From positions 27,446-91,445 of the IMG/VR virus record IMGVR_UViG_3300024246_000004: DNA of 64,000 bases; one strand, given 5' to 3'. The translations under genes were made by a program, and so were the position numbers. The DNA is from a virus (taxonomy: Duplodnaviria; Heunggongvirae; Uroviricota; Caudoviricetes). A model generated the notes under the pieces. The model was not told the DNA's origin. It worked only from the letters and a program-made list of their open reading frames with translations, and searched no databases. This document shows, in pieces, positions 7,229-47,597 of the stretch. The first letter of the stretch is position 1. Each line of letters begins with the position of its first letter.

Positions 7229-7229
7229 C

Positions 7230-8876: not shown

Positions 8877-8952
8877 GGGCCTATAGCTCAGCCCGGCAGA
8901 GCGCCCGCTCGGCAGGCGGGAGGTTTCGTCGGTTCGAATCCGACTAGGTCCA
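8877..8952 (+). tRNA. tRNA-Ala(GGC)
   Basis: G3.U70; anticodon arm CCCGC-TCGGCAG-GCGGG; T-arm GTCGG-TTCGAAT-CCGAC. Confidence 0.65.
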
Positions 8953-9160
8953 CTACCGCCGCGTGGTCGGCGGGGAGCGACGCATGTCGGAGATTGCGCG
9001 CTCGCAGGACAAGGCTTACCCGTGTTGGATTCCGACTAGGCACGGGAGGTAGCGTGTCCATCCGCACCGCCCCGCAACGGGCTGCCGGACCGGGTTGTGC
9101 CGGTTAGGCTGCAATACCGAGTGAGTCGCCCGGCACTCGTTAATCCCTACCGGCGAACCT

Positions 9161-9248
9161 GGAGAGGTCGGCCCCGCTGGCGGAGGCACTGTCCTGGAAT
9201 GGCAGCGGCCGTTGATTCGGTTCGTGGGTTCGATTCCCACTCTCTCCG
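9161..9248 (+). tRNA. tRNA-Ser(GGA), long variable arm
   Basis: GGAGAGG/TCTCTCC; anticodon arm CTGTC-CTGGAAT-GGCAG; T-loop TTCGATT. Confidence 0.7.
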
Positions 9249-9547
9249 CGAACTCGGCGACCAGTCTTGGAACGCAGCTCACTCTGCCTTCGTTGCCGAG
9301 TCTCACTGTCCGACAGCCAAGCGGTTCCGCGCACCATGTGCCGGGCGCTGTCGGGCTCCATGCGGGCCCTGGGGAGGTAACCTGACGGTCCACGGTGCAC
9401 CAGCGACCGTCAGCAGCTCCGTCCACTCGGAGCGCCCGCTCGATCGACAGCCATAGTGGCCTCGCACCCCGCGCTCCCTACGCTGTCGAGCTCAACCCGG
9501 TGGCCATAGCGAGAACCCTCCCACAGGACACTCCCGCCGCCGGTCGT

Positions 9548-9621
9548 GGTCCTGTAGAGCAGCTGGAGTGCTCGCCACCCTGTCAAGGTGGAGGTCGCGG
9601 GTTCAAGTCCCGTCAGGACCG
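9548..9621 (+). tRNA. tRNA-Asp(GTC)
   Basis: GGTCCTG/CAGGACC with G73; anticodon arm CCACC-CTGTCAA-GGTGG; T-loop TTCAAGT. Confidence 0.85.
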
Positions 9622-9625
9622 CTAA

Positions 9626-9698
9626 GGCGACGTAGCTCAGCGGATAGAGCGCTTCCCTCCGAAGGAAGAGGCCGTGGGTTCAAATCCCACCGTCGCCA
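9626..9698 (+). tRNA. tRNA-Arg(CCG)
   Basis: GGCGACG/CGTCGCC; anticodon arm CTTCC-CTCCGAA-GGAAG. Confidence 0.8.
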
Positions 9699-9699
9699 C

Positions 9700-9782
9700 G
9701 GAAGGTCCGACACTGGTGCGTCAAGCGTCTTCGAAAGGCGTGGCGGTGAAAGCCGTTAGCGGTTCGAGTCCGCTACCTTCCG
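9700..9782 (+). tRNA. tRNA-Ser(CGA), long variable arm
   Basis: GGAAGGT/ACCTTCC; anticodon loop TTCGAAA; T-arm AGCGG-TTCGAGT-CCGCT. Confidence 0.65.
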
Positions 9783-9834
9783 CTACCAGCAGCCGAGGTC
9801 AACGCGTATCCCAAAATCGTTCTGCTGCTGGTTT

Positions 9835-9918
9835 GGAGAGTTGCCGGAACGGTAACGGCGCCGCCTTGAAAGCGGACGGCAGGGAAACCTGGAGCAGGTT
9901 CGACCCCTGCACTCTCCG
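9835..9918 (+). tRNA. tRNA-Ser(TGA), long variable arm
   Basis: GGAGAGT/ACTCTCC; anticodon loop CTTGAAA; variable-arm hairpin CAGG-GAAA-CCTG; T-loop TTCGACC. Confidence 0.7.
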
Positions 9919-9923
9919 CGCGG

Positions 9924-9994
9924 TCCCCGCTAGTTCAATGGCAGAACGCTCGACTGTTAATCGAGAAGTACCTGGATCGATACCAGGGCGGGGA
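9924..9994 (+). tRNA. tRNA-Asn(GTT)
   Basis: TCCCCGC/GCGGGGA; anticodon arm CTCGA-CTGTTAA-TCGAG; unusual T-loop ATCGATA. Confidence 0.65.
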
Positions 9995-10012
9995 GCATGA
10001 AAGGGGGCGGTT

Positions 10013-12574: not shown

Positions 12575-12690
12575 GAGTTCGATCGGCGTGGGACTCCCCT
12601 TCCGTTGGACGGTTGGTTGACGGCTCGCACAGCGCCACAGAGCGCTGTTGACGGCCGGTTGGGCATCACCTTACCGGGGGACGCCCGGTA

Positions 12691-12716
12691 GCGCCGTAGG
12701 GACGTCCCTACGGCGC
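12691..12716. promoter_or_regulatory. 26-bp perfect palindrome GCGCCGTAGGGACGTCCCTACGGCGC next to a TTGACTAACGTAGCG promoter-like element
   Basis: Self-complementarity checked by hand. Confidence 0.55.
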
Positions 12717-12720
12717 TACG

Positions 12721-15526: not shown

Positions 15527-15562
15527 ACGGGCTACGTTAGTCGCCTGCGCGTTATGCGTCAA
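15527..15562 (-). promoter_or_regulatory. Sigma70-like promoter TTGACGCATAAC-N-ACTAACGTAGC (-35 TTGACG, 17-nt spacer, -10 TAACGT)
   Basis: Member of a family of 6 near-identical elements upstream of leftward genes. Confidence 0.6.
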
Positions 15563-18403: not shown

Positions 18404-18441
18404 GTACGTACGCTAGTACCGGATGTGCGATGCGTCAACTA
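18404..18441 (-). promoter_or_regulatory. Sigma70-like promoter TTGACGCATCGCACATCCGGTACTAGCGTAC
   Basis: Same family; -35 TTGACG, 17-nt spacer, -10 TAGCGT. Confidence 0.6.
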
Positions 18442-20627: not shown

Positions 20628-20668
20628 GGGGGATACGTTAGTCCCCGGGATGTGATGCGTCAACCCTG
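20628..20668 (-). promoter_or_regulatory. Sigma70-like promoter TTGACGCATCACATCCCGGGGACTAACGTATCC
   Basis: Same family. Confidence 0.6.
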
Positions 20669-21348: not shown

Positions 21349-21744
21349 TTAGATGTAGCGGGCGTGGGACGGGCGGCGGGCGGGCATCCGCAGGCGCGGC
21401 ATGCTCGGGCGGCTCGCCACCGGCAGGCGGCGGTACCAGCGCACGCCCAGGAACAGGTACACGGGCACGGAGAAGTAGAACGCGGGGAGGATCAGGAACA
21501 GCAGCGAGACTTTCAGCCGCTTCGCTGCGACCGCGTGGCGCTGATTGAACGTCGGGCGCGGCGGGGCCACGGCGAACAGTCCGCGCCCGCCGACCGCGTT
21601 CACCTGGTACCCGGCGGAGGCGAGCAGCATGTGCGCCTGCCCGCTGACCACCGTGTTGGGGAACGCGAGCACGTATCCGCCGTTGGGGGACAGGCTCGCC
21701 TGGTGTGCGATGCCGAGTTCCGCGAGGATCCTCATCTGGGCCAT
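21349..21744 (-). CDS. Membrane protein
   Basis: SD GGAAGGCAACGATC-ATG; hydrophobic segments. Confidence 0.5.
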   Translation of the reverse strand: MAQMRILAELGIAHQASLSPNGGYVLAFPNTVVSGQAHMLLASAGYQVNAVGGRGLFAVAPPRPTFNQRHAVAAKRLKVSLLFLILPAFYFSVPVYLFLGVRWYRRLPVASRPSMPRLRMPARRPSHARYI

Positions 21745-21774: not shown

Positions 21775-21815
21775 AGCGCTACGTTAGTACCAGGTGTGTG
21801 ATGCGTCAAGCGTCA
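21775..21815 (-). promoter_or_regulatory. Sigma70-like promoter TTGACGCATCACACACCTGGTACTAACGTAGCG
   Basis: Same family. Confidence 0.6.
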
Positions 21816-22754: not shown

Positions 22755-22795
22755 GATACGCTAGCGCGGTACGTGTGATGCGTCAAGCTCACCAG
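22755..22795 (-). promoter_or_regulatory. Sigma70-like promoter TTGACGCATCACACGTACCGCGCTAGCGTATCC
   Basis: Same family. Confidence 0.6.
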
Positions 22796-23451: not shown

Positions 23452-23492
23452 AACAAGGGCGAGACTAGTACTCGGCGCGTGATGCGTCAACC
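23452..23492 (-). promoter_or_regulatory. Sigma70-like promoter TTGACGCATCACGCGCCGAGTACTAGTC
   Basis: Same family; first promoter of the leftward block, divergent from the terminase operon. Confidence 0.55.
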
Positions 23493-23512: not shown

Positions 23513-24031
23513 ATGGCAGCACTACCCGCCGACGCCAAAGCCATGACACAGGTCGAGCGGCGCCACAAAGCCATCGAGATGCGCCGCGTCGGCATCCCCT
23601 GGGAGAAAATCGCCGAAGAATGCGGCTACTCCACCCCCGCCGTCGCAGCGGCCGACATCTACAAAGTACTCAGCGACCGCGTCCGGGAAATGGGCGACGC
23701 CGTCTCCGCGCTGCGCTCTTTGGAAGCCGACAAACTCGACGCCATGGAACGCGTCATCATCAACGTGATGCGCAAACCCCATATCCTTGCGCAGCAAGGC
23801 CGCATCATCATCGACCCCGCCACCGGGAAACCGGCAGAGGATCCGGGCCCCGTCTTCCAATGCGTAGACCGGCTCCTGCGCATCGCCGAACGCAGAGCGA
23901 AACTCCTCGGAATCGACAACCCCGTCAAAACGCAAGTCGAAATCAAGGCGGTGGGCGTTGACGCCGAAATTGCCGGAATCCTGGCAGGAATGGTCACCGG
24001 AAGAGAAGAAGAAACTCCTCGCGACGCTTAA
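23513..24031 (+). CDS. Terminase small subunit (putative)
   Basis: Position directly upstream of the large terminase; HTH-like N-terminus, oligomerisation-like C-terminus. Confidence 0.55.
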   Translation: MAALPADAKAMTQVERRHKAIEMRRVGIPWEKIAEECGYSTPAVAAADIYKVLSDRVREMGDAVSALRSLEADKLDAMERVIINVMRKPHILAQQGRIIIDPATGKPAEDPGPVFQCVDRLLRIAERRAKLLGIDNPVKTQVEIKAVGVDAEIAGILAGMVTGREEETPRDA

Positions 24032-25379
24032 ATTCGCCCAATGGCGTCAAGCCGCCCGCACCGACCAGCTACCCCCGCGCGGCCCGTGGGTCACCCTCTA
24101 CCTGCGCGGCGGACGCGGAAGCGGCAAAACATGGTCCGGAGGCCATATCCTCCTGGAGCGCGTCCTAGCCGACCCCGAACCGGGAGAATGGGCGGTCGTC
24201 GCACCGACGTACGAAGATGCGTGGGCCACCTGCTGCGAAGGCCCCAGCGGCATCCTCGCGGCACTGGGAACCAACGCCGTGCAGGTCAAACAGCACGACT
24301 CGCCCCTCGTACGGTACTGGAACCGCACCATGGGCGAACTACGCATGCGCAACGGACACCTCATCCGGTTCGCCTCCGCCGACGACGGAGCGCTGAGGAT
24401 CCAGGGCAAGAACCTCAAAGGCGTATGGGCCGACGAAATCGGCCTCTGGGACAAATGGCAGACCGCCTGGGACGAATCCATCCAATACGCGGTACGCATG
24501 GGCGACGCGATCCGCATCGTCACCGGCACACCCAAATCGAGCCGCAAAGCCCGCGAACTGATCAAACGGCTCATGCTCGACCCCGCCGTACACGTGCAAG
24601 TCCTGCGCACCGTAGACAACGCCGCCAACCTGAGCCCCGCGTTCATGGCCTCCGTCGTCGCCGCCGCGAAAGGCACCCGGCTAGAGCGGCAAGAACTCGA
24701 AGGAGAACTCCTCGAAGATGTAGACGGCGCACTGTGGACCCTGGAGATGATCGAACGCGGACGCGTAGACGAACACCCCGAACTGAGCCGCATCGTCGTC
24801 GCCGTAGACCCCGCCGTCACCGGCAGCGAAACCAGCGACGAATCGGGAATCGTCGTCGTCGGAGAACACCAAGGCCACGGCTACGTACTCGCCGACTACT
24901 CCATGGTCGGCTCACCCCAAGAAGTCATGGAGAAAGTCGTCTGGGCCTACCACGAACACCAAGCGGATAGGGTGCTCGCCGAAGTCAACAACGGCGGCGA
25001 CTACATCGGCACCCTGCTGCGCGTCGTCGATTCCTCCGTGCCCTACCAGGCCGTGAGGGCGACCAGAGGCAAACTGCTGCGCGCCGAACCGGTAGCGGCG
25101 CTCTACGAACAAGGCCGCATGCACCACGTCGGACGGTACCTCGATCTTGAAGAACAGATGATCGTCTGGCACCCCGACAGCTCGAAAAGCCCCGACCGCC
25201 TAGACGCATTGGCATGGGCCGTAGCAGGACTACGCACCCTCACCGCAGGATCATGGGCACAAGCCCACGGCATCGTCTACTGCGACGAATGCCAACAGCC
25301 ATTCATGATCAAACTACACCCGCTGAACTGCCCCAACTGCCGCACAACACACGGAAAAGGCACCGAAATAGGGAGCTGA
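23958..25379 (+). CDS. Terminase large subunit
   Basis: Walker A-like GGRGSGKT near the N-terminus and a nuclease-type C-terminal half; TTG start overlaps terS by 74 nt. Confidence 0.7.
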   Translation: MTPKLPESWQEWSPEEKKKLLATLKFAQWRQAARTDQLPPRGPWVTLYLRGGRGSGKTWSGGHILLERVLADPEPGEWAVVAPTYEDAWATCCEGPSGILAALGTNAVQVKQHDSPLVRYWNRTMGELRMRNGHLIRFASADDGALRIQGKNLKGVWADEIGLWDKWQTAWDESIQYAVRMGDAIRIVTGTPKSSRKARELIKRLMLDPAVHVQVLRTVDNAANLSPAFMASVVAAAKGTRLERQELEGELLEDVDGALWTLEMIERGRVDEHPELSRIVVAVDPAVTGSETSDESGIVVVGEHQGHGYVLADYSMVGSPQEVMEKVVWAYHEHQADRVLAEVNNGGDYIGTLLRVVDSSVPYQAVRATRGKLLRAEPVAALYEQGRMHHVGRYLDLEEQMIVWHPDSSKSPDRLDALAWAVAGLRTLTAGSWAQAHGIVYCDECQQPFMIKLHPLNCPNCRTTHGKGTEIGS

Positions 25380-25640
25380 ATGGCCACCCTCACCTACAAC
25401 GGCGGACCCGCCCACGGCACCCAACACACCGTGCCCGGGAAACCACCCAACACCCGGTACTACGCACCCCCAGGCGACCGAGCACAAGCCGGGCAATGGT
25501 TACAACTAGGGCGTTATAGCCTGAAATGGAAACAAGCAGACGGAACGTATACGTATACGTTCAGCGGATATTCGGACGTCCTAGGACCCAAACCGGCCGT
25601 CGGAGCGAACGGGGGAGAGCCGATCGAGGGGTGGTCATAG
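25380..25640 (+). CDS. Hypothetical protein
   Basis: ATG abuts the terL stop (TGAATG). Confidence 0.45.
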   Translation: MATLTYNGGPAHGTQHTVPGKPPNTRYYAPPGDRAQAGQWLQLGRYSLKWKQADGTYTYTFSGYSDVLGPKPAVGANGGEPIEGWS

Positions 25641-26640
25641 TCGCACGTTTATGCAGGTGGCACTACATAAAGGCCTGTTTGGCAGTGTGTTGACTCACTG
25701 GGAAGTACGTCTATTCCGGGCATTGCGGGCGCGAATCAGGGTTCAACTACATGCGCCGACGGGGGGCGCGACGTCACGACCTGCGCAAAGTCACCTTCGC
25801 TCACCGGCGGGTAAGCAACGGAGGCGTGAGCGACTGGAGTAGGCCGGTGGCGGGCATCCCCTCAGTACCGCGTACGCGTGCCTGCGTTCCGCGCGTACGA
25901 ACGCAGGCACGCGAGACTGGGGTACTCCAGTAGGCGCCCCCCAAGGGCCCTCCCTGCGCTTGTGCTGCATAAGAGTGATTATGCATGAGATGGAATGCCC
26001 ACATAGGGCGCAATACGGGCATCACGTTCCATGATTCGCTCACATGTGCGACTGGCGCACTCCAGTGGAAGCCCCCTACGGGCCGCTGTGCCACTGGCAC
26101 ACCCCAGTAGGCGCTGTGTACCGAGGCACGGGTGTACGGCGCTCCACGGTGCCCTACAGGGCCAGGAATCGCACTCCACTGGGCTACTCCACTGGCACAC
26201 TCCAGTGGAAACACCCCCCACCCCACTGGAGTATTCCAGTATTGAGGTACTCCACTTGGGCACATACATGCAGGTGGGGCCACTGGTGTACCCCAGTAGG
26301 GGGCCTACATATAGGCATGCATACACACTGGGGTACCACAGTAGGGCCACCTGTGTACGTACGGGTGTGTGCACTGTGGGTGTACACACATAGGCCCCCA
26401 TGGGACAGGCACACGGGGGTCCTACGTACATCCATGCATGGGCATGCCGCCTAGGTGCGTGCACGTTCACGTGTGGGCATGCGGGGGTGGCACCGGCTCT
26501 CACCTGCATGTGCCCGTGCGTGTGTCAACCTGTGAGTTCGCGCACGTCAAGGGGATGATAACTCAACCTCAAGGGGCTGATGTGGGCACCGCGCGGCGTC
26601 CCCCCGTTCTACGTGGTTCCCCCATCCGCCCTTCAGCTTA
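25641..26640. repeat. About 1 kb non-coding, lower-GC, repeat-dense region (CCACTGG/CCAGTGG, CCCAGTAGG, TTATGCA motifs; 14-bp-stem hairpin at 25871-25908)
   Basis: More than 12 copies of (A/C)CTCCAGTGG / CCACTGG within 26040-26350; no credible ORF. Confidence 0.55.
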
Positions 26641-26664
26641 ACGTATCCGTGTTACACTTCCCCC

Positions 26665-26919
26665 GTGCCCGACTCCCAGATCCGCAGCGAGCTCATCACC
26701 CGCCTCGCGTACGCCATCCGCAACCGGATGCCCGACGCCCCGGATCCGGAGCTGCTGGCACGGGTGTCCCTGGATGCGTTGCCGGACGGCACGCAGTGGC
26801 TGATGCGCATGGCGGAGCACTACCAGGCGCGGGCGGATGCGGCGGAGGCGCTGCTGGTGGCGAGGGTTGAGCCTGTGAGGCACAATCCGCTGTGTCGGCT
26901 GTTGTTGCGGCGCCGCTAG
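26665..26919 (+). CDS. Hypothetical protein
   Basis: GTG start 17 nt downstream of a TTAACGTATCC motif. Confidence 0.4.
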   Translation: MPDSQIRSELITRLAYAIRNRMPDAPDPELLARVSLDALPDGTQWLMRMAEHYQARADAAEALLVARVEPVRHNPLCRLLLRRR

Positions 26920-26922
26920 GGC

Positions 26923-27123
26923 TTACCACCCTTGGGGCGTGCTGTGCCTGCGTGCACGCCTGCACACCGTGCATTCTACGGGCGCCAGCCCTCCGTAGGC
27001 CGCTGGCCGGTTCTCGTGCCCCCCGGTGCACTTCCACGCGGCTTTGGGGCAGTCGGGCAGGTGGTCGGCTTCCCCTTCGGCGAACCATTCCTCGCAGATG
27101 CAGTCGTTCCCCCAGATTCTCAC
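26923..27123 (-). CDS. Cys-rich small protein
   Basis: GTG directly after a GATACGTTAAGC motif (leaderless-like); CICEEW...CPKAAWKC...CTVC. Confidence 0.35.
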   Translation of the reverse strand: MRIWGNDCICEEWFAEGEADHLPDCPKAAWKCTGGHENRPAAYGGLAPVECTVCRRARRHSTPQGW

Positions 27124-27137
27124 GCTTAACGTATCCC

Positions 27138-27455
27138 CTACCCCAGTCTGCGGATCCCGGTGACGATGTCCACGGCGACGAGGTAGGTGATGCTGCCGTC
27201 TTCGCGTTCGCAGGTGTAGTACTCGGTGTCGCCTTCTTGGGCGGTCGTCACGTCGAGTTGGAAGCTTTTCGGGGAGTCCTCGGTGGCGTGTGCGTGCACG
27301 GTGACGCCCCTGGTCCAGGTGTGTCCGTGGACGCGCTGGGTGGAGGCGAGCAGTTCCCCTGTGGCGGCGTGTGTGGTGTGCAGGTAGACGTCGTACGCGG
27401 TGAGTTCCTGGTCGTCGTCGCGCCGGGGGTACCACAGGGATTGTACGGTGGGCAT
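27138..27455 (-). CDS. Hypothetical protein
   Basis: SD TAAGGAC-ATG preceded by GATACGTTAAAC. Confidence 0.5.
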   Translation of the reverse strand: MPTVQSLWYPRRDDDQELTAYDVYLHTTHAATGELLASTQRVHGHTWTRGVTVHAHATEDSPKSFQLDVTTAQEGDTEYYTCEREDGSITYLVAVDIVTGIRRLG

Positions 27456-27464
27456 GTCCTTAGT

Positions 27465-27632
27465 TTAACGTATCCGGTCTTCCGGCAGCACTGTCCAGCT
27501 CATCCCGTCGGGCACTTCGAGGACGTCCCGGTAGTCGCACCGGTGGCACCACCAGCTCCATACGGTGAACGCGAAACGCTTGTGGTTCGCGGTGAAGTGG
27601 GAGCGGTGCCCTGTGACTTTGACTTTGCTCAC
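27465..27632 (-). CDS. Hypothetical small protein
   Basis: SD GGAGAGGG then GTG; coupled GTGA with the upstream gene. Confidence 0.4.
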   Translation of the reverse strand: MSKVKVTGHRSHFTANHKRFAFTVWSWWCHRCDYRDVLEVPDGMSWTVLPEDRIR

Positions 27633-27823
27633 GCGTCCCTCTCCGGTTCCTCGCTGCGCGTCGAGGGCCCCAAGCACCAGGTGGTCTCCACCTTCGCCCA
27701 CAGCTGCCGCGTGTTCTCGCCTTCGGCGTCGGGCCAGCCGCAGGTGCAGGCTAGTTCGCCGCCGTCGCGGTACATGATCCCGACGGTGCCGTCCAGGTGC
27801 AGGGCGAGGGCTTCAAGGTCCAC
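27629..27823 (-). CDS. Hypothetical small protein
   Basis: ORF. Confidence 0.4.
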   Translation of the reverse strand: MDLEALALHLDGTVGIMYRDGGELACTCGWPDAEGENTRQLWAKVETTWCLGPSTRSEEPERDA

Positions 27824-28016
27824 GGCCGATCCATTCGTCCAGGATGATCATGACGAGCGAGTAGTCGTCGCAGGGCTGCGCCATGCAGTGCCACTGCCAG
27901 TTGCGTTCCCAGTCGATGCCCCCGGCGGGGTCGTCGCGGAACGCCAGCCGCCCGCCGATCTTGTGGACGCAGGCGTCCCAGCCGTGGCAGGGGCAGGTGG
28001 GCCGCTCGTTTTCCAT
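27813..28016 (-). CDS. Cys/His-rich small protein
   Basis: ORF; first gene of the leftward unit that starts at the 28.05-28.30 kb control region. Confidence 0.4.
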   Translation of the reverse strand: MENERPTCPCHGWDACVHKIGGRLAFRDDPAGGIDWERNWQWHCMAQPCDDYSLVMIILDEWIGRGP

Positions 28017-28089
28017 GGCTCCAGGGTAGCGCTCCGCGCCCGCTTAACGTAGCCGCCTGAAAGGCCCTTCGGGTTCGGCTCGGACAGGG

Positions 28090-28300
28090 GCCCTCTTTAT
28101 ATATAAGGAATTTGCCCGGAACGTGCCGTTGACCTGGGAACTTACGGTACCGTAAGTTACGACGTGGCGTAACAAATACTGCAACGGATCGTATATGCGG
28201 GCCTCGGTGGTTTAGGCCAGTATACACGGTGCCGCCCTCGCGCAGACATGCTCTAGACTGTATGCCAGTTTACGAATCCTCGTAAGTTGACGGCGGCGCG
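28090..28300. promoter_or_regulatory. Divergent AT-richer control region: 20-bp perfect palindrome AACTTACGGTACCGTAAGTT (28139-28158), a further CGTAAGTT copy at 28281, TTGACC at 28128, and CTTTATATATAAGG
   Basis: Palindrome checked by hand; leftward genes start at 28016 and the winged-helix gene at 28306. Confidence 0.6.
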
Positions 28301-28305
28301 GAGCG

Positions 28306-28779
28306 GTGATGGCGGAAGTCAACGAGAAGGACTACTATGTCGTCCTCAACCCACGCACCGGCGAACTGGCGAAGCCCAAGAAGAAGAAGCCGGGAAGGTA
28401 TGGTTATCGCATGGGCCAGTACGTCACGGTCGGCCAGTTGGACGCGGAGGCGCTGGCGGACCTGAACCTCACCGCGATGGAGTGGCGCACTTTCTGGCTG
28501 ATCGTCGCGAAGTGCGAGGTGCACGGCTGGACCCCCTTCGTGGCCACGAAGCTAGCCGAACGGCTGGGGACCACGCAGCCCTACATGTCCCGCGTCCTGA
28601 AGAGGCTTGTGGATGTCGGGCTGCTGCTGCGCGCGGAGTACGGGGACGGCCATTCGCACCGCTACCGCCTCAACCCCGCGCACGTCTTCAAGGGCGACAC
28701 CCAGCAGCACCAAGATGCCCTGCGCGAGACCGACGCACGCCCCGTCTCCGCACCGCGCCCGGCGGCCCCACCGGCTTAA
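28306..28779 (+). CDS. Winged-helix / HTH DNA-binding protein (candidate early regulator or replication-control protein)
   Basis: ...TKLAERLGTTQPYMSRVLKRLVDVGLLLR... has an HTH-like pattern; first gene after the palindromic control region. Confidence 0.5.
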   Translation: MMAEVNEKDYYVVLNPRTGELAKPKKKKPGRYGYRMGQYVTVGQLDAEALADLNLTAMEWRTFWLIVAKCEVHGWTPFVATKLAERLGTTQPYMSRVLKRLVDVGLLLRAEYGDGHSHRYRLNPAHVFKGDTQQHQDALRETDARPVSAPRPAAPPA

Positions 28780-28800
28780 CGTATCTGCTACACTCTCCCC

Positions 28801-28908
28801 ATGAAAACTCCCCGCACTCCCCTCGGCGCGTGGATGGCGTCCATCGCGGTCGCCGTCGTCGCCGCAGCGGTCGGCGCCGCCCTCCAGCTGACGGTCCTGA
28901 GCCGGTGA
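28801..28908 (+). CDS. Small membrane peptide (35 aa)
   Basis: TTAACGTATC motif 16 nt upstream; hydrophobic helix; stop overlaps the next GTG. Confidence 0.4.
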   Translation: MKTPRTPLGAWMASIAVAVVAAAVGAALQLTVLSR

Positions 28909-29768
28909 GCCGCCTCACCCGCTCCCAGATCGCGCAGATCGAGCAGCACCTTCAGGCCGCGATCAACGACTACCCCGTGGCCGCCGAGCACTACGCCTAC
29001 GTCTCCACCCTGCTGGCGCACATCCAGGCCGACTTCTCCCAGCTACTCGCGGAGTTCCCCTTCGACGCTCCGGCCGAGGCACAGATCCATTCCAGTTACT
29101 CCTTGATCGTCGCCGCCGTCCTGCGCACGCAGAACCCGTTCGAGCAGACCCCGGAGGAGCGCGCCGCGCAGATCGTCGAGGCTTTGCCCCGTGCCGAGGC
29201 GCAGGAGATCGCGCGCCTGAAGGCGGAGCTGAAGAAGGCCGGGAAGGCGTACGGCAGGGCCTCTGCCGCGATCGGGAGCCTGCGCCGCGATCTGGCGATG
29301 GCGCGCCTCTACAGCGTCTACTGGAGGCAGTGCCAGGAGTCCGAGTGCGTGCGCTGCCGCACCGTCTTCGCCGAGACCCCCTTCTACGAACGCCTGCCCA
29401 GCGCCGAGGAGATCGCCAACGCCCCCCGCCGGAAGATCAAGCTCCCGGACGCTCCGGTGGTCGGCAAGGGCCAGTTCGAGGACCCCGGCAGCCTGGAGGC
29501 CCTCCAGCGTGAACGCTCCCGCACGCGTCCATGGAGCACCTTCGCCGCCGCGATCGAGGATGACGCCGAGGCGGACGCGGTGATGGCGCAGGAGCTGGCC
29601 GACGACGGGGTGCGCATCTGCGCCGCCGCGTACACCGACTCCGGCCGCGACACCGGCCACGCCCTGTGCGGCTCTGCCGAGGGCCCGCTCGCGGTGGACA
29701 ACAACACGGTCAGCTGCCTGGACTGCGTGCGCCTGCTGGAGGACGGCTGGGCCGTGGAGGAGGACTGA
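28905..29768 (+). CDS. Hypothetical protein with C-terminal Cys cluster
   Basis: GTG coupled to the upstream stop; CVRCR...C...C...CLDC. Confidence 0.45.
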   Translation: MSRLTRSQIAQIEQHLQAAINDYPVAAEHYAYVSTLLAHIQADFSQLLAEFPFDAPAEAQIHSSYSLIVAAVLRTQNPFEQTPEERAAQIVEALPRAEAQEIARLKAELKKAGKAYGRASAAIGSLRRDLAMARLYSVYWRQCQESECVRCRTVFAETPFYERLPSAEEIANAPRRKIKLPDAPVVGKGQFEDPGSLEALQRERSRTRPWSTFAAAIEDDAEADAVMAQELADDGVRICAAAYTDSGRDTGHALCGSAEGPLAVDNNTVSCLDCVRLLEDGWAVEED

Positions 29769-29962
29769 TGCGCAACTGGCGTACGGGTACTTTGGGCTAC
29801 TGGGACAGGATGCCGAACGGCAACCATGTCTTTGAGCCGAACCTGAACGGCGCCGTGCAGATGGTCGAGGTGATGGATGACACGGGCAACGAGGCGACGG
29901 TCGTGCAGGAAGTAGACGAAGAGGGCTTCACGGTCCTCGTGTGGCGCGTCCAGATCGACTAG
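29768..29962 (+). CDS. Hypothetical small protein
   Basis: ATG overlaps the upstream stop (TGATG). Confidence 0.45.
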   Translation: MRNWRTGTLGYWDRMPNGNHVFEPNLNGAVQMVEVMDDTGNEATVVQEVDEEGFTVLVWRVQID

Positions 29963-30245
29963 CGTACCCCAAACCAGCCGTCCGCCATGGTGTCCGGGGA
30001 GAACCCGGAACGGGGTTCCTGGTGTACTGCCCCTCATGAAACAGCGGGCGGCGTTCTCATCTCCACGATGCGACAGCAACGGTTGCATGTACGCGCCTCG
30101 ACGACCCGCGCCCAGTTGAGGCTTCGCCAGTCGCCGGGGTCATGCCTGCGCGGGCACGGGTCAAGGCAGAGCCTGATCGCATGCATCCGCATCCGGTGCC
30201 AGCGGTTGTGCACCTGCTTGCGGCTGCCGCCCGTGAAGTACCTGA

Positions 30246-30755
30246 TCACCACTGCGCCAGCTCCTGGAGTGCCGTGTGGTCGTCGATCGCGTACTGCGGT
30301 TCGACCTCGCAGAGGTCTCCGTGGAAGCTCCAGCCGACCTCGAACAGCTCGATGCACTGCGCGCCAGGCCACTCGTCCGCCCGGAACCAGGGCATGATCA
30401 CGCGCGGGAGCCTGCCGCCGACCACCTTCCACGGGTTCTTCTCCTGCGGCGGCATGTTCGCCGGATCCTGGACGACGCTGACCTCGGTGACCTCCATGCG
30501 CCCACCCCGCTCGACGCCCCCCATGCTCAGTGACGGACAGACCATGAGCGTGAGCAGGCCGTTCCGGCTCACGACGATCTCCGTCGCGACCCCCAGCGCG
30601 CCGCCCGGCTCGTGGACCAGGGTGACGACCTTCCCGATGGGATACAGGCGTGGGCTGTGGTTGACGCGCAGCGTCGTGTCCGGCCAGAACATGGTCGAGA
30701 ATTCGCGCCCCCCGGGCGGTCGCACGCTCCCGAAGATGGTCAGCTCCCCGAACAT
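30246..30755 (-). CDS. Hypothetical protein (169 aa)
   Basis: SD GGGGGGTGG then ATG; protein-like composition. Confidence 0.45.
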   Translation of the reverse strand: MFGELTIFGSVRPPGGREFSTMFWPDTTLRVNHSPRLYPIGKVVTLVHEPGGALGVATEIVVSRNGLLTLMVCPSLSMGGVERGGRMEVTEVSVVQDPANMPPQEKNPWKVVGGRLPRVIMPWFRADEWPGAQCIELFEVGWSFHGDLCEVEPQYAIDDHTALQELAQW

Positions 30756-31068: not shown

Positions 31069-31464
31069 TCAGTCCTCTTCCACCCATTGCCCGTTACGGC
31101 GTATCTCGACCTTGATGTCTGTGGCCTGTGCGGGCTTGTCGTTGCGCACCCACCGGCCGCCCTCAAACTTCCAGGCGTATCCCCGGTTCGCGCCCTCGCC
31201 GCCCTCATGCAGTTGGCGGTTCAACCACAGCTTGAACTTCGGGTGCGCCGCCATCCGCTTGAACGCGGCCCTCCGGTTTTGCAGCTGGCTGCGTTCCTCC
31301 CGACTTTCGCCGACCGCACCAGAGGGCTCATGCACGATCCTGATGCCGGTGTTGCGCTTGTTCTGGTTCTGGCCGCCGGGACCGCCGGAGCGGAACTCGT
31401 CCACCCGGCAGTCGCTGATCTTGACACTGAGTACCAGTTTACGTTCGTTCACGCCGCCCATCAT
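31069..31464 (-). CDS. ArfB-like peptidyl-tRNA hydrolase (RF-1 domain, GGQ motif)
   Basis: FRSGGPGGQNQNKRNTGIRIVHEPSG matches the class-I release-factor / ArfB catalytic GGQ region; about 130 aa with a basic C-terminal tail, as in ArfB. Confidence 0.7.
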   Translation of the reverse strand: MMGGVNERKLVLSVKISDCRVDEFRSGGPGGQNQNKRNTGIRIVHEPSGAVGESREERSQLQNRRAAFKRMAAHPKFKLWLNRQLHEGGEGANRGYAWKFEGGRWVRNDKPAQATDIKVEIRRNGQWVEED

Positions 31465-31888
31465 CGCACGGGTGGTGGCCGTAGGCGAAGAACCACTTGT
31501 TGGCCTTGCGGAACTTCCCGTTCAGCCAGAAACCCCAGGAGCGCCTCGGGCGGCCGGTGACCAGGACCGTCCACGCCCCGCCCGCGTCCGGCACGACCGT
31601 GTGGCGGTGCAGTGCCGGGCGATACCGCACTGAGCCCGCCCGCAGGTGCTCGTCGCCGTCAGGGTTCTTATCTACGTACCCCCCGCGCAGCACTAGCGTA
31701 ACAAACCACCACGGGTGATCATGGAAGGCCCGGTCGTCGTCGGGACCCAGCCAGTGGTGGACGCGCAGCGAGCCGAGCGGCGTTTCCAGGCGCCAGCGGA
31801 TGACGTACGGGCATTCCGGCAGGCCGAGCTTCTCGGCCCACCTCACCAGTCCCAGGGGATGATTTCGAGTCACCGACCTCTGCTTCAT
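31439..31888 (-). CDS. Hypothetical protein
   Basis: ORF (HDHPWWF...); overlaps the ArfB start. Confidence 0.4.
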   Translation of the reverse strand: MKQRSVTRNHPLGLVRWAEKLGLPECPYVIRWRLETPLGSLRVHHWLGPDDDRAFHDHPWWFVTLVLRGGYVDKNPDGDEHLRAGSVRYRPALHRHTVVPDAGGAWTVLVTGRPRRSWGFWLNGKFRKANKWFFAYGHHPCDDGRRERT

Positions 31889-31956
31889 CTGAGCAGCGCT
31901 CTGCCTCTGAGCTACCCTGAGTCGCCGCACACCTCCGTGGCGCGTCGGCTCCCACC

Positions 31957-45490: not shown

Positions 45491-46390
45491 CTAGAAGGCT
45501 CCGAAAGCCACCTGCGGACAGAAGATGCCCATGCCGCGCCACAGCCTGACCAGTCGGTTGCGGTCGTCCAGCATCGCCTGGAAGTTGTAGCGGTGCCGCA
45601 CGAACTTGTCAAACATCTCCAACTTCACCACGTCGTCAGGTCGGTCGTCGCCCGGCTCGCGTGTGTGGAACTCGCGGTAGAACAGGCCGTTTTTCGCCAA
45701 CCAGCGTTCGCGCTGCTCCTTGAACTCGCCCTTGCCGCCCGACAGGAGCAATACGTCGAAACCCGCGTCGCGGTACAGCCCCAGCAGGTGCGCCACCGGC
45801 ACGTTGACCGCGTCCGTCTCGATCTTGTCGAACTCGAAAGGCCCGCGCGCCACATGTAGCGCCAGCGTCCCGTCGAGGTCGCAGCCGACCGCCTTGGGCA
45901 GCGACTCGTCGGGCACGTACGGCAGCGCCACCGGCCGGTCGTTCATCCACTCGGTGGTCAGCCGCCAGCCGCCCTTGCGAGCGCCTTCCATATCCTTGGC
46001 GAGCTTATGGATCACATCCCTGCCGACGGTGCCGGTCCGACGCATCATGTCGCGTCGGACGCACTCCTCGACCGGCACATCCGTCAAGTCGTGCACCTCG
46101 AAGCGCGCCTCGGGCAGCAGGATGAAGTTGTCCTTGTAGAGCCGGGGCAGCTTGCGGTTCAGGTGCGTATTGTCGAGCACGATGTCGCTTCCCGCGCGGG
46201 CGACCGCCAGCGCGCCCTCCAGCATCGCTGTGACGGCCAGGCGCTCCCGGTCCCTCGACCAGTTTTCGCCGGTGAAACCGAGCATCGCCCTGTACTCGTC
46301 CAGGTTGAAACGCGGCACGCCCAGCGACCGCGCTAGAGTGGTCTTCCCGGACGCCGGGAGCCCTGTCGTCACATGCAGAGTTTGTGCCAT
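45491..46390 (-). CDS. Polynucleotide kinase-phosphatase (Pnkp: P-loop 5-prime kinase plus HAD 3-prime phosphatase)
   Basis: N-terminal Walker A GLPASGKTT; C-terminal HAD motif I DLDGTLA; SD GAAGGAGAGTG-ATG. Confidence 0.75.
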   Translation of the reverse strand: MAQTLHVTTGLPASGKTTLARSLGVPRFNLDEYRAMLGFTGENWSRDRERLAVTAMLEGALAVARAGSDIVLDNTHLNRKLPRLYKDNFILLPEARFEVHDLTDVPVEECVRRDMMRRTGTVGRDVIHKLAKDMEGARKGGWRLTTEWMNDRPVALPYVPDESLPKAVGCDLDGTLALHVARGPFEFDKIETDAVNVPVAHLLGLYRDAGFDVLLLSGGKGEFKEQRERWLAKNGLFYREFHTREPGDDRPDDVVKLEMFDKFVRHRYNFQAMLDDRNRLVRLWRGMGIFCPQVAFGAF

Positions 46391-47517
46391 CACTCTCCTT
46401 CGGTGGACGAGAACGTCGCGGTGCCGCTCGGCTTGACCATCTTCCACGCCATCTCCTCGATACTCTTGCCGTCGTACAGCCGGAACAGCATGGAGCTCAG
46501 GCCGGTCGGAATCGCCTCCTGCGCGAACTCCTTGCGCAGCGCCTTGTTCGTGATCGCCGCGTAGGCCACGTTCGCGGCCAGCACCTTCTCGGCGTGCGCC
46601 TGCCGCAGCCGGTCCGCGACGTCCTGCACCCAGCGCATGAACTCGTCCGGCACGTTGGCGAGCAGGTCGTCCAGCGAACCGCCGTTGGCGAGCACCTCCC
46701 AGATGGTGCGCTCGTTCATGCCGGTCAAGATCGCATGCATGCGGATGTACTCCGTGAGTTTGATCTTCACTCGCCGACCCGAGCGGTATCGCAGGACGTA
46801 GCCCTCCATGTCCGTGCCGGTGCGTACCATGCCGTGGATGTCGGCGCTGCGACCCGCGAGCTCGACCAGGACATCCAGCGGCATCTGCGGCCAGCTGCGC
46901 ACCACGGAGCCGATCGACATCCAGTCCACCATCAGGGCGTCCAGCGGGAGCTCGTCGCCCAGCCTGCCGTACACGCCGAGCAGGACCAGGTCGCGCCTGT
47001 TGCCGTGGTTGACGACGATCCGGTTTTCCGGGTAGACAATCTCGGCGAGGTAGGTGCTGCCCACACACAGGCGACTGGAGACCGGACGCCCGAACTCGTC
47101 GGCCCGGTCGATCCACGCCTGCGCCCACTGGGCCTGCTCGGAGGCGAACGAGCCGCGCGAAGCGGCGCGCCAGCGCTCCTGGCGGCGGTCCCAGAAGACG
47201 ATGCCCAGCGACCCGTCCACCTTGTCGTAGACCGTGAACGGCTCGTCCGGCAGGTCCGGCGCCCACGGGTTGCCGTGGCCGTGCTCCGAATGGTTGAAGA
47301 ACTTCGGGAACGGCCACGCGAGGATCTCGCCAGTCACGTCGTCCGCGATCAGGCCCCGGCAGCGCAGCGTCACCTCGTTCCAGTGGTGGCCGTACTGGCA
47401 GGTCTCCGTGTAGTTGAAGATCGACAGGCCGTCGCCGGAGCGTCCGCGCCGGACGCGGCCCGCGTCGATCTCCTCCTGGAGCCGTCCAGGGCCGAACAGC
47501 TCGTCGAGCGTGGTCAT
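46390..47517 (-). CDS. RNA ligase (Rnl1-like, KxDG nucleotidyltransferase)
   Basis: Motif I YDKVDGSLG; SD GAAGGGGGCAGTC-ATG; stop overlaps the pnkp start (TGATG). Confidence 0.6.
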   Translation of the reverse strand: MTTLDELFGPGRLQEEIDAGRVRRGRSGDGLSIFNYTETCQYGHHWNEVTLRCRGLIADDVTGEILAWPFPKFFNHSEHGHGNPWAPDLPDEPFTVYDKVDGSLGIVFWDRRQERWRAASRGSFASEQAQWAQAWIDRADEFGRPVSSRLCVGSTYLAEIVYPENRIVVNHGNRRDLVLLGVYGRLGDELPLDALMVDWMSIGSVVRSWPQMPLDVLVELAGRSADIHGMVRTGTDMEGYVLRYRSGRRVKIKLTEYIRMHAILTGMNERTIWEVLANGGSLDDLLANVPDEFMRWVQDVADRLRQAHAEKVLAANVAYAAITNKALRKEFAQEAIPTGLSSMLFRLYDGKSIEEMAWKMVKPSGTATFSSTEGE

Positions 47518-47597
47518 GACTGCCCCCTTCATGGATTGCGGCGTGAGGATCATGGGTTTCGAGAGTACTGTGGCCGCAATGGGGACTAACGTATACC

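What the first reader, a model, noticed from the sequence alone, without database searches (positions are those of the whole stretch)
28090..28779. Divergent control region with a 20-bp perfect palindrome and CGTAAGTT repeats upstream of a winged-helix gene
Between leftward genes (first start at 28016) and a rightward HTH gene (28306) lies an unusually AT-rich 200 bp. It contains AACTTACGGTACCGTAAGTT (perfect palindrome), a third CGTAAGTT half-site at 28281, a TTGACC -35-like hexamer and CTTTATATATAAGG. This looks like an operator plus promoter for a repressor-like or replication-control protein, possibly a lytic/lysogenic-type switch or an origin.
Basis: seen in the sequence. Interest (0 to 1): 0.6.

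Follow-up and report, generated by a model that had tools for sequence, protein, structure and literature searches.

The report
Self-regulating RepL-like DNA-binding gene cassette
The palindrome is real and is one of three binding-site-like dyads over the promoter of a small winged-helix gene, but the whole unit is a portable accessory cassette in a novel tRNA-rich phage, related to RepL proteins of small plasmids, not a lysis/lysogeny switch.

Summary
The 20-bp palindrome (28139-28158) is one of three dyads built on the pentamer TTACG. The other two, 28156-28173 and 28269-28286, have the 6-N6-6 spacing typical of the protein's relatives. Dyads A and B cover a TTGACC-N18-TAAGTT promoter-like pair, and dyad C lies just before the ribosome-binding site of a 156-aa winged-helix gene (28309-28779).

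The protein belongs to an uncharacterised family of 11 proteins. A profile comparison links this family over nearly its full length to Pfam RepL proteins of small plasmids. In ten relatives' loci, and in plasmid relatives, the gene is preceded by dyads of the same geometry but locus-specific sequence, several overlapping a promoter. All ten phage-type loci also share an AT-rich dyad box followed by (C/T)TGACCTG.

A syntenic phage with 81% identical TerL lacks the unit. In the window it is bracketed by two copies of the phage's own promoter motif.

My reading is a portable, self-repressing DNA-binding cassette. A RepL-type mini-replicon is not excluded. A lysis/lysogeny switch is not supported.

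The parts
27813..28016 (-). First leftward gene (67 aa, no known domain). It is a neighbour, not part of the cassette.
   Evidence: GC3 0.90. A 63% identical homolog lies in the syntenic phage L040 at 8426-8626. No Pfam, PHROG or PADLOC hit.
28042..28054 (.). Left copy of the phage-wide motif GCTTAACGTAGCC. It reads TAACGT on + and TACGTT on -. It is the probable leftward promoter (-10) for the 28016 gene and marks the left border of the cassette.
   Evidence: 13 copies of the motif in the window, several directly upstream of genes on either strand. In L040 a single copy serves both divergent genes in a 27-nt gap.
28095..28108 (.). AT-rich imperfect dyad CTTTATATATAAGG, the most AT-rich spot in the 64 kb. 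Its role is unknown (UP-like element, factor site or unwinding element).
   Evidence: An equivalent dyad box lies at about the same distance upstream of (C/T)TGACCTG in all 10 other loci: CTATATAG in nine, CTATA-N6-TATAG in L003.
28107..28119 (+). GGAATTTGCCCGG, a 13-mer identical in the closest relative's control region (L003).
   Evidence: The four exact matches to GGAATTTGCCCGG-N6-11-TTGACC in viral contigs lie in unrelated DNA and look like chance: two in tape-measure-like reading frames, two in a low-GC phage.
28129..28136 (+). TTGACCTG. TTGACC is the -35-like hexamer of promoter P1. (C/T)TGACCTG is conserved in all cassettes.
   Evidence: The module TATA-N18-34-YTGACCWG occurs once per locus, always upstream of the gene.
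28139..28158 (.). Dyad A: AACTTACG-GTAC-CGTAAGTT, a perfect 20-bp palindrome with TTACG half-sites and an N4 spacer. It covers the spacer and -10 of P1.
28153..28158 (+). TAAGTT, the -10-like hexamer (TAnnnT) of P1, 18 nt after TTGACC. The inferred transcription start is near 28165.
   Evidence: L003 has TTGACC-N18-TAGTTT at the same relative place.
28156..28173 (.). Dyad B: GTTACG-acgtgg-CGTAAC, with perfect arms and the family's 6-N6-6 geometry. It spans about -9 to +9 of P1.
   Evidence: It fits the consensus GTTnnn-N6-nnnAAC seen in relatives.
28269..28286 (.). Dyad C: TTTACG-aatcct-CGTAAG (6-N6-6), 14 nt before the GGAG ribosome-binding site. Its TAAGTT (28283-28288) could be a weak second -10.
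28309..28779 (+). Winged-helix gene, 156 aa. The alternative GTG at 28306 would give 157 aa. It is a divergent RepL-superfamily protein.
   Evidence: AlphaFold2 model with pLDDT 89.3 and topology a1-a2-a3-aR-wing-a5. Only generic winged-helix fold matches. Pfam MarR 24.6 bits at the cut-off and RepL 15 bits below the cut-off. hhalign against RepL-passing plasmid proteins gives 99.8%, E 1.4e-27, 125 columns.
28774..28786 (.). Right copy of the motif GCTTAACGTATCT. It overlaps the TAA stop codon, is the promoter-like element for the next gene, and marks the right border of the cassette.
   Evidence: It aligns with the single motif of L040.
28801..28908 (+). 35-aa hydrophobic ORF, followed by the 287-aa gene 28905-29768. 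Both are neighbours conserved in L040, not part of the cassette.

Best explanation
The stretch 28055-28786 is a self-contained, portable accessory cassette. It consists of a short control region followed by a 156-aa winged-helix gene of a divergent RepL-like family.

I infer that the protein binds as a dimer to three TTACG-based dyads. Dyads A and B lie over the spacer, the -10 and the start site of the cassette's own promoter (TTGACC-N18-TAAGTT). Dyad C lies just ahead of the ribosome-binding site. Binding would therefore shut off the protein's own synthesis, which is negative autoregulation.

The leftward genes are driven separately from the phage's standard promoter motif at 28042-28054. 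The cassette is not a core switch of the phage.

Shown here: the sequence features, their non-random clustering, the fold class, the homology, the conserved cis layout in relatives, and the absence of the unit from a close relative.

Inferred: DNA binding, dimer stoichiometry, promoter activity, repression, and any targets beyond the protein's own promoter.
For: 1. Clustering. Six TTACG/CGTAA pentamers fall in 160 nt against 0.10 expected, P about 1.5e-9. The two TTACG-N6-CGTAA sites are the only ones in 64 kb.

2. Promoter. TTGAC-N16-19-TAnnnT gives 8 matches in the window against 1.36 expected. Six of them are one repeated phage promoter and one is this site.

3. Protein. The model is confident (pLDDT 89.3) with an ArsR/MarR-like topology. 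The best fold matches are dimeric winged-helix repressors such as SlyA, MarR, ArsR and SmtB, but only at a generic level.

4. Comparison. All 10 other loci encoding the family (43-51% identity) have, upstream of the gene, an AT-rich dyad box, then (C/T)TGACCTG, then 2-3 dyads.
- The dyads are 6-N5/6-6 and often phased at 21 bp.
- In L003 the first dyad overlaps the -10. In the nine terS/terL loci one dyad overlaps the -10 and start site of a TTGAC(A/G)-N17/18-TAnnnT promoter.

5. Half-site sequence changes together with the start of the recognition helix:
- window: TTQPYMS with TTACG
- L003: CTASAVS with GTTTCC
- SSAPSIS with GTTGCC
- SGTPSIS with GTTACC
- Bacillus pl7: KPPHVS with GTTACC
- Bartonella pKM19s: TRHNFN with GTTATC

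6. Portability.
- L040 (TerL 81%, neighbours 58-82% identical) has no cassette. One promoter motif sits in a 27-nt gap there, while the window has a motif copy on each side.
- In eight of the ten other family loci the gene lies next to terS, between terS and terL wherever the contig reaches terL.
- In terL relatives at 65-70% identity that gap holds other cargo.
Against: No binding or transcription data exist, so promoter and operators are inferred from sequence alone.

The centres of A and B are only 16 bp apart, so both cannot be occupied in the standard way at once.

P1 lies 145 nt from the start codon. That is farther than in relatives, where the distance is about 50-75 nt.

The E. coli-type promoter scan scores nothing here, because TAAGTT matches only 3 of 6 positions of TATAAT.

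The helix/half-site covariation rests on few independent lineages.

Conservation is strongest outside the recognition helix: N-terminal DxxTGE, RYG, RYRLNPAHFFKG and the C-terminal helix. The nearest named relatives are plasmid RepL proteins. Both points suggest a role beyond simple repression.
Confidence: 0.55

Rival explanations
1. RepL-type mini-replicon. The cassette would be an origin plus its initiator. The protein would bind the dyads as iteron-like sites next to the AT-rich box and start replication there, either rolling-circle as proposed for pSN2-type RepL plasmids or theta. Autorepression would be a side function. The 732-bp unit might even be a tiny plasmid-like element integrated at the promoter motif.
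For: - The family aligns over 125 columns with proteins that pass the Pfam RepL threshold: hhalign 99.8%, E 1.4e-27.
- These include the only Rep-like genes annotated on small plasmids: Bacillus pl7 (7.0 kb), pMRY14-0100_7 (4.6 kb) and Bartonella pKM19s (3.3 kb, two tandem copies).
- Those plasmid genes have the same phased GTTAYC-N6-GRTAAC dyads just upstream.
- The Asn-Pro pair said to be highly conserved in RepL proteins (PMC10655114) has a counterpart, N122-P123, invariant here.
- RepL proteins are about 18 kDa HTH proteins regarded as initiators of pSN2-type plasmids (PMC5703833).
- The most AT-rich 20-mer of the window lies 30 nt from the dyads.
- Relatives also carry a GAA-triloop hairpin and a hairpin with an invariant loop upstream.
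- The unit is flanked by direct repeats.
- 8 of 11 members give weak hits to the N-terminal domain of phage replication protein O.
Against: - The window protein scores below the RepL cut-off, 15 bits against 20.3.
- The unit is dispensable: a close relative and related terminase loci lack it.
- The AT-rich box is only 14 nt long.
- There is no GC-skew inflection at 28 kb.
- The window lacks the invariant-loop hairpin and has no convincing GAA hairpin.
- A conserved 1-kb gene-free repeat region beside TerL (25640-26665) is a better candidate for the phage's own cis-acting replication or packaging site.
- A RepL-annotated winged-helix protein of a Salmonella island was shown not to be needed for replication (PMC10655114).
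- Dyads overlapping the promoter are equally expected for a plain autorepressor.
Confidence: 0.28
2. Core divergent switch of the phage (lysis/lysogeny type). The protein bound at the palindrome would choose between leftward and rightward transcription programmes.
For: Genes diverge from this region, and a palindrome overlaps a promoter-like pair.
Against: - The leftward gene has its own promoter-like motif about 90 nt away, not overlapped by any dyad.
- L040 keeps both flanks but has only 27 nt between them and no such gene.
- The domain scans run here on selected window ORFs found no integrase, excisionase or cI/Cro-like partner. The window was not scanned exhaustively.
- The genome carries 36 tRNA genes and RNA-repair genes. 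In my judgement, not tested here, this suits a large lytic phage.
- In most other loci the gene sits inside the packaging module.
Confidence: 0.04
3. Regulator aimed at other targets. The protein's main job would be to bind sites elsewhere, in the unread 27 kb of the phage or in the host chromosome, where the same 18-mer may serve as a host regulator's operator. The local dyads would only set its level.
For: The exact 18-mer ACTTACGGTACCGTAAGT occurs in 11 metagenome contigs. Several copies are intergenic in high-GC bacteria, upstream of membrane-protein or lipid-metabolism-like genes as judged by eye from the ORF translations. One is in tandem with a near-copy. Relatives are mostly single-gene units with no obvious local target other than themselves.
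Against: By my rough estimate, which assumes a Tb-scale collection, about 10-20 chance matches are expected for an 18-mer. No homolog of the protein lies beside any of the matches. No further dyad occurs in the 64 kb. The 4th CGTAAGTT, at 39880, lies in the first codons of a gene with no partner half-site.
Confidence: 0.08
4. No function. The palindrome would be a chance feature or a terminator-like hairpin in an AT-rich spacer.
For: A perfect palindrome of 20 bp or more arises in 13% of simulated 64-kb sequences. A weak terminator-like site is scored at 28077-28092.
Against: The half-site cluster has P about 1.5e-9. The layout is conserved in 10 independent loci and in plasmids. The RNA fold of the leader is no better than shuffles, z 0.10.
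Confidence: 0.03

Closest known systems
RepL family (Pfam PF05732): about 18 kDa HTH 'replication/maintenance' proteins of pSN2-type and other small plasmids
   Same: - Similar size, 156 aa here.
- A single winged helix preceded by a short N-terminal beta region with a TGE motif, and a YRLNP..KG segment after the wing.
- Full-length profile match to plasmid proteins that pass the RepL threshold.
- The same GTTnnn-N6-nnnAAC dyads directly upstream of the gene.
- Sequence variation concentrated in the DNA-specificity region, as noted for RepL (PMC5703833).
   Different: - The window protein and its 10 close relatives score below the RepL gathering threshold.
- They sit in phage genomes, mostly inside the packaging module, not on small plasmids.
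- No replication function has been shown. The biochemistry of RepL itself is poorly known (PMC5703833).
MarR and ArsR/SmtB-type dimeric autorepressors
   Same: Winged-helix core with flanking helices. Best fold matches are SlyA, MarR, ArsR, SmtB and CzrA. An 18-20-bp dyad overlaps the protein's own promoter. MarR-type regulators are known for this arrangement (established knowledge).
   Different: - Only the 30-residue HTH core matches the MarR model, at exactly the cut-off of 24.6 bits.
- The ArsR model scores 24.5 bits against a cut-off of 55.
- TM-scores are 0.34-0.39.
- There is an extra conserved N-terminal beta region and an RYRLNPAHFFKG segment.
- No ligand or metal site is evident.
SEN1990 of the Salmonella Enteritidis island ROD21 (PMC10655114)
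   Same: A RepL-annotated winged-helix protein carried by a mobile element as an accessory gene. Experiments showed it is not required for replication or maintenance, and it affects gene expression. It is a precedent for a RepL-like protein acting as a regulator.
   Different: Different host and element. SEN1990 lacks the conserved Asn-Pro of RepL proteins (PMC10655114), while this family keeps it. No sequence comparison with SEN1990 was run here.
Phage lambda O protein and the ori-lambda iterons
   Same: An N-terminal winged-helix domain binds repeated dyad-symmetric sites next to an AT-rich stretch (established knowledge). 8 of 11 family members give weak hits to the O N-terminal model, best E 2.2e-5.
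   Different: The hits are far below family level. This protein has no C-terminal partner-binding domain. The dyads lie upstream of the gene, not inside it.
Promoter-flanked mobile gene cassettes of T4-type phages (PeSL elements; Arbiol et al. 2010, cited from memory, not read here)
   Same: Small accessory genes in a variable region, each bounded by copies of a repeated promoter motif that can serve as recombination sites. The window has 5 copies of GCTTAACGTA(T/G)C within 2.2 kb (26636-28786). The cassette lies between two of them.
   Different: Different phage group and different motif. No recombination product or minicircle has been shown here.

Membership tests
RepL (Pfam PF05732) | Score at or above the Pfam gathering threshold (20.3 bits) | tested here: not met
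   The window protein scores 15.0 bits, and only 3 of 11 family members hit at E<=0.1. The nearest plasmid relatives do pass, at 28.2 and 29.8 bits over profile positions 16-134 of 164.
RepL (Pfam PF05732) | Full-length homology to accepted members | tested here: met
   hhalign of the 11-member family against 9 plasmid or metagenome relatives, which score 26-32 bits on the RepL model (cut-off 20.3): probability 99.8%, E 1.4e-27, 125 aligned columns, covering positions 12-137 of 155. Caveat: several of those 9 were found as hits to this protein.
RepL (Pfam PF05732) | Conserved Asn-Pro pair (Asn-131/Pro-132 of staphylococcal RepL, per PMC10655114) and a size of about 18 kDa | tested here: inconclusive
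   N122-P123 are invariant in all 11 members, within RYRLNP. The plasmid relatives have YRLNP or YRLDP. The protein is 156 aa. Positional equivalence to staphylococcal RepL was not checked directly.
RepL (Pfam PF05732) | Needed for replication of the element that carries it, with an origin nearby | not testable with these tools
   Indirect evidence only. The unit is absent from a close relative, so it is not essential for this phage type.
MarR family (Pfam PF01047) | Score at or above the gathering threshold (24.6 bits) over the winged-helix domain | tested here: inconclusive
   24.6 bits for the 156-aa form and 24.5 for the 157-aa form. Only residues 79-108 match, against profile positions 20-49 of 59.
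MarR family (Pfam PF01047) | MarR fold, with N- and C-terminal helices forming the dimer interface around the winged helix | tested here: inconclusive
ArsR/SmtB metalloregulators | Score at or above the NCBIfam NF033788 cut-off (55 bits) | tested here: not met
   24.5 bits. All 11 members hit, but far below the cut-off.
Phage replication protein O, N-terminal domain (TIGR01610 / PF04492) | Family-level score, and binding sites inside the protein's own gene | tested here: not met
   Best E 2.2e-5 in 8 of 11 members and none for the window protein. The dyads lie upstream of the gene.
Iteron-plasmid initiators (Rep_3 type) | Two winged-helix domains, with direct-repeat iterons plus an inverted repeat at the promoter | tested here: not met
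   The model has a single winged helix. There is no Rep_3 hit. The sites are dyads, not direct repeats.
Autoregulated operator-promoter unit (functional class) | Dyad sites overlapping the -35/-10 pair of the regulator's own gene | tested here: met
   Dyads A and B cover 28139-28173 and P1 spans 28129-28158. The same holds in L003 and the nine terS/terL loci. This is met at sequence level only. Binding and repression were not tested.

The most novel reading that the evidence does not exclude
The unit is a portable RepL-type mini-replicon: an origin (AT-rich dyad box plus phased dyads, with extra hairpins in relatives) together with its 156-aa initiator. It would move between small plasmids and phage genomes and lodge at promoter motifs or in the terS-terL gap. 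There it could start extra, possibly rolling-circle, replication close to the packaging genes. Alternatively it could persist as a selfish sub-kilobase element that rides in phage DNA.
Probability: 0.25. Interest if true: 0.7.

Novelty: new variant of a known kind. Interest (0 to 1): 0.4.

Why it matters
As an operator-promoter unit of a small autoregulated DNA-binding protein, this is ordinary biology.

The new part is the family and its packaging:
- It is an uncharacterised branch of the poorly understood RepL proteins.
- It is found only in uncultivated high-GC phages, with no hit in 50,697 deposited phage genomes.
- It always travels with the same cis layout: AT-rich dyad box, (C/T)TGACCTG, then locus-specific 18-bp dyads.
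- That dyad layout is shared with RepL genes of Bacillus, Bartonella and Kitasatospora plasmids.

The family therefore offers a natural set of matched protein/operator pairs for working out how RepL-type winged helices read DNA. It also offers a direct way to ask whether RepL-like genes in phages regulate or replicate.

It further shows that this part of the phage is a variable region whose genes are bounded by copies of a promoter motif.

Tried and rejected
- **Deposited phages.** Megablast of 26500-30500 and tblastn of the window protein and of P0143 found nothing.
- **Viral contigs, exact 20-mer.** No match.
- **Viral contigs, GGAATTTGCCCGG-N-TTGACC.** Four exact matches, all in unrelated DNA and judged to be chance: two in tape-measure-like reading frames and two in a low-GC phage.
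- **E. coli-type promoter scan.** No promoter scored in 27700-29000. I rely instead on the actinobacterial TAnnnT rule, which is established knowledge.
- **RNA element.** Rfam finds only tRNAs in the window. The 161-nt leader folds no better than shuffles, z 0.10.
- **Origin by skew.** There is no inflection at 28 kb; skew follows gene direction.
- **Defence-system link.** PADLOC gives only generic winged-helix hits.
- **Neighbour functions.** Pfam and PHROGs gave nothing for the three leftward genes or for the 287-aa gene; Pfam gave nothing for the 64-aa gene.
- **Relatives' hairpins in the window.** The hairpin with the invariant loop GGGGTCCGGAGGA is absent. The GAA-triloop hairpin has no convincing counterpart, z +1.2.
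- **Fourth CGTAAGTT at 39880.** It lies in the first codons of a minus-strand gene with no partner half-site and is treated as chance.
- **Internal 16-bp palindrome 28536-28551.** It lies within codons, and by eye it is not kept in L003. It was not pursued.
Full report
**Setting.** The window is 64 kb of a 91.4-kb metagenome contig (ENA ERZ27256701 k141_554652) with 65.8% GC. It is a phage. It has a large terminase at 23958-25379, a portal domain at 54273-57695 and a capsid-like gene at 60903-62774. It also carries 36 tRNA genes at 1093-9996 and RNA ligases plus a Thg1-like gene. The terminase is at most 43% identical to any deposited phage. Megablast of 26500-30500 finds nothing. The host is unknown. 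The high GC and the promoter style suggest an actinobacterium, but that is inference.

**Observation.**
- The AT-rich box at 28095-28108 is the most AT-rich 14- and 20-nt stretch of the whole window.
- A perfect 20-bp palindrome is not rare by itself. 38 of 300 simulated 64-kb sequences have one, and the window has two others, at 12688-12719 and 25543-25562.
- The half-site cluster is what cannot be chance. Six TTACG/CGTAA pentamers lie within 160 nt against 0.10 expected, Poisson P about 1.5e-9, and no other 160-nt window approaches this.
- The pentamers pair into three dyads:
  - B, GTTACG-ACGTGG-CGTAAC, at 28156-28173;
  - C, TTTACG-AATCCT-CGTAAG, at 28269-28286.
- TTACG-N6-CGTAA occurs only at B and C in the 64 kb, even allowing one mismatch. 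TTACG-N4-CGTAA occurs only at A.

**Promoters.** TTGACC (28129-28134), 18 nt, then TAAGTT (28153-28158) fits the actinobacterial TTGACN / TAnnnT rule, which is established knowledge.
- The pattern TTGAC-N16-19-TAnnnT has 8 matches in the window against 1.36 expected. Six belong to one repeated phage promoter, TTGACGCATCAC-N11-ACTARCGT, at 15.5-23.5 kb.
- With an inferred start near 28165, dyad A covers about -26 to -7, B covers -9 to +9 and C covers +105 to +122. GGAG follows at 28300 and ATG at 28309.
- The leader shows no unusual RNA fold, z 0.10, and no Rfam match.
- The leftward gene (start 28016) has its own element. GCTTAACGTAGCC at 28042-28054 is one of 13 copies of a phage-wide motif that reads TAACGT on one strand and TACGTT on the other. 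Copies sit directly upstream of genes in either direction, for example in the 29-nt divergent gap at 35378.
- No dyad overlaps that element.

**The protein.** The 156-aa product is an orphan in word-based search. An exhaustive HMMER search finds 137 relatives, two of them at 46-48% identity. A profile search finds 11 proteins at 43-51% identity.
- The AlphaFold2 model is confident (pLDDT 89.3). It has short N-terminal strands, helix, helix, strand, helix, recognition helix, beta wing and a C-terminal helix.
- Pfam MarR is hit at exactly the cut-off over 30 residues. RepL scores 15 bits against 20.3 needed. NCBIfam ArsR and phage-O-N models hit weakly.
- The best annotated relatives are on small plasmids (tblastn, 25-30% identity, up to 87% coverage). 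They are Bacillus mycoides pl7, B. cereus pMRY14-0100_7, Bartonella pKM19s, and Streptomyces and Kitasatospora linear plasmids.
- The pl7 and pKM19s proteins pass the RepL threshold over nearly the whole model.
- A profile-profile comparison of the 11-member family with nine such proteins gives 99.8% probability, E 1.4e-27, over 125 columns.
- I therefore treat the family as a divergent branch of the RepL superfamily that today's RepL model does not capture.
- RepL proteins are described as about 18 kDa HTH initiators of pSN2-type rolling-circle plasmids and are little studied (PMC5703833). A RepL-annotated protein of a Salmonella island was shown not to act in replication (PMC10655114).

**Comparative anatomy.** I read the DNA around all ten other family members.
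- In eight of them the gene lies next to and convergent with terS (Terminase_4). In the six contigs that reach terL it is also divergent from terL, with a 400-780-nt gene-free stretch upstream. In L011 that side of the contig ends in another short gene, and L017 is too short to tell.
- Aligning the upstream regions shows a common order. It runs: a GC hairpin with a GAA loop and covarying stems; an AT-rich dyad box (CTATATAG; CTATA-N6-TATAG in L003; CTTTATATATAAGG here); about 25 nt; (C/T)TGACCTG; then two or three dyads of 6-N5/6-6 geometry, often 21 bp apart; then the gene.
- The module TATA-N18-34-YTGACCWG occurs exactly once per locus, always here.
- In the nine terS/terL-type loci a strong TTGAC(A/G)-N17/18-TAnnnT promoter lies about 50 nt from the start codon, with one dyad over its -10 and start site.
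- In L003, the closest relative, TTGACC-N18-TAGTTT is followed by three GTTTCC-N5-GGAAAC sites at 21-bp phasing. L003 also shares the 13-mer GGAATTTGCCCGG with the window.
- The plasmid relatives have the same dyads directly upstream of the gene:
  - three GTTACC-N6-GGTAAC in pl7;
  - two GTTATC-N6-GATAAC in pKM19s;
  - one GTTATC-N6-GATAAC in the Kitasatospora plasmid.
- The outer GTT...AAC is nearly constant. The inner bases differ between lineages, together with the first residues of the recognition helix.
- Window dyad B fits this consensus best.

**Portability.** The 287-aa gene downstream has a 58% identical homolog on a 120.8-kb contig.
- That locus, L040, is syntenic. TerL is 81% identical, the TerS-like protein 82%, the 169-aa protein 77%, the RF-1-domain protein 75% and the 67-aa leftward protein 63%.
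- It has no winged-helix gene. A leftward HIT-family gene starts 7 nt from a single GCTTAACGTATAC motif. The small hydrophobic ORF homologous to 28801-28908 starts 7 nt after that motif.
- In the window, the motif is present on both sides of the unit, at 28042-28054 and 28774-28786.
- The slot also differs on the left. L040 has MUG113- and HIT-domain genes there.
- Likewise, relatives of the terS/terL phages with 65-70% identical TerL have tRNA-like sequence, an HNH-like gene and an unknown ORF in the terS-terL gap, and no homolog of this protein.
- The unit is therefore an accessory cassette that carries its own control region. It is not a core regulatory node of this phage.

**Mechanism.** The best-supported reading is that the protein binds the TTACG dyads as a dimer and represses its own promoter P1.
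- This rests on the site geometry, the overlap with the promoter, the conserved layout and the helix/half-site covariation. None of it has been tested biochemically.
- Open points:
  - why A has a different spacer, and why A and B are only 16 bp apart;
  - what reads the conserved AT-rich dyad box and (C/T)TGACCTG, which stay constant while the dyads change;
  - whether the protein has other targets.

**The main rival** is that the cassette is a RepL-type mini-replicon.
- For it: the homology; the identical cis layout in plasmids where the homolog is the only Rep-like gene annotated; the AT-rich box; the extra hairpins in relatives, one with an invariant 13-nt loop GGGGTCCGGAGGA and covarying stems; and the flanking direct repeats.
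- Against it: the unit is dispensable; the AT box is short; there is no skew signal; the window lacks the extra hairpins; and a RepL-like protein has been shown to act outside replication (PMC10655114).
- I give it about 0.28.
- A lysis/lysogeny switch is not supported, and chance is excluded by the comparative data.

**Verdict.** The case is a new variant of a known kind, of moderate interest.

Noticed in passing
window 25640-26665 (dyads at 25916-26297); L040 5738-6935: A gene-free stretch of about 1 kb right after the terminase genes holds six ACTGG-N6-CCAGT dyads plus related repeats. The syntenic phage L040 keeps a gene-free stretch there with four such dyads. It is a candidate packaging or replication site of the phage itself.
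   Followed up: partly
window 15534-15562, 18410-18438, 20635-20663, 21781-21809, 22758-22786, 23462-23490 (all - strand): Six near-identical promoter-like sites, TTGACGCATCAC-N11-ACTARCGT, lie ahead of the leftward block of small genes at 13-23.5 kb.
   Followed up: partly
window 4092, 10448, 26636, 27124, 27463, 28042, 28774, 35378, 36048, 37166, 41411, 50573, 50707; L040 9877-9889; L003 59-71: A phage-wide motif G(C/A)(T/A)TAACGTAT(C/A)C reads as a -10 on both strands (TAACGT and TACGTT). It sits at gene borders, five times within 2.2 kb around the finding. It may act both as a promoter and as a recombination point for gene shuffling.
   Followed up: partly
L002 9676-9708, L008 5691-5720, L009 5685-5722, L010 3435-3468, L011 279-315, L012 3568-3603, L013 896-929, L014 569-600, L017 266-297: Between the cassette and terL, nine related loci have a hairpin with an invariant 13-nt loop GGGGTCCGGAGGA and 7-11-bp stems that differ by compensating changes. 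In three loci a T-run follows on the terL strand. It is absent from the window.
   Followed up: partly
L020 2396, L022 821, L023 3260, L024 1120, L026 6741, L027 4428 (metagenome contigs): The exact 18-mer of the palindrome occurs in unrelated bacterial contigs, several times between genes in high-GC DNA and once in tandem with a near-copy. No homolog of the winged-helix protein is nearby. This may be chance or a host regulator's operator.
   Followed up: partly
window 1093-9996: An array of 36 tRNA genes on the + strand (33 confirmed by Rfam). Two further ARAGORN calls, at 21554-21655(-) and 31849-31921(-), are not confirmed by Rfam and lie in coding regions.
   Followed up: no
window 46390-47553, 49599-50576, 52263-53390, 31069-31464: Two RNA ligase genes, a Thg1-like tRNA-His guanylyltransferase gene and an RF-1-domain gene. 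Together with the tRNA array these look like a tRNA repair and translation-rescue set.
   Followed up: no
window 12688-12719 and 25543-25562: Two further perfect palindromes: a 32-bp one, GTAGCGCCGTAGGGACGTCCCTACGGCGCTAC, and a 20-bp one, GAACGTATACGTATACGTTC, at the end of the 86-aa ORF after TerL.
   Followed up: no
window 23958-25379 versus 54273-62774: The terminase genes lie about 30 kb from the portal (inside an 1140-aa ORF) and the capsid-like genes, which is an unusual split of the packaging and head module.
   Followed up: no
L040 3267-5735: In the related phage, the first 45 residues of TerL match 3267-3401 and the rest match 4497-5735. A minus-strand HNH_3 gene (3616-4350) lies between them. 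This suggests an intervening mobile element in terL.
   Followed up: no
window 308-847: A ParB-like nuclease/partition-domain protein at the left end of the window (PHROG 723, E 8e-34).
   Followed up: no
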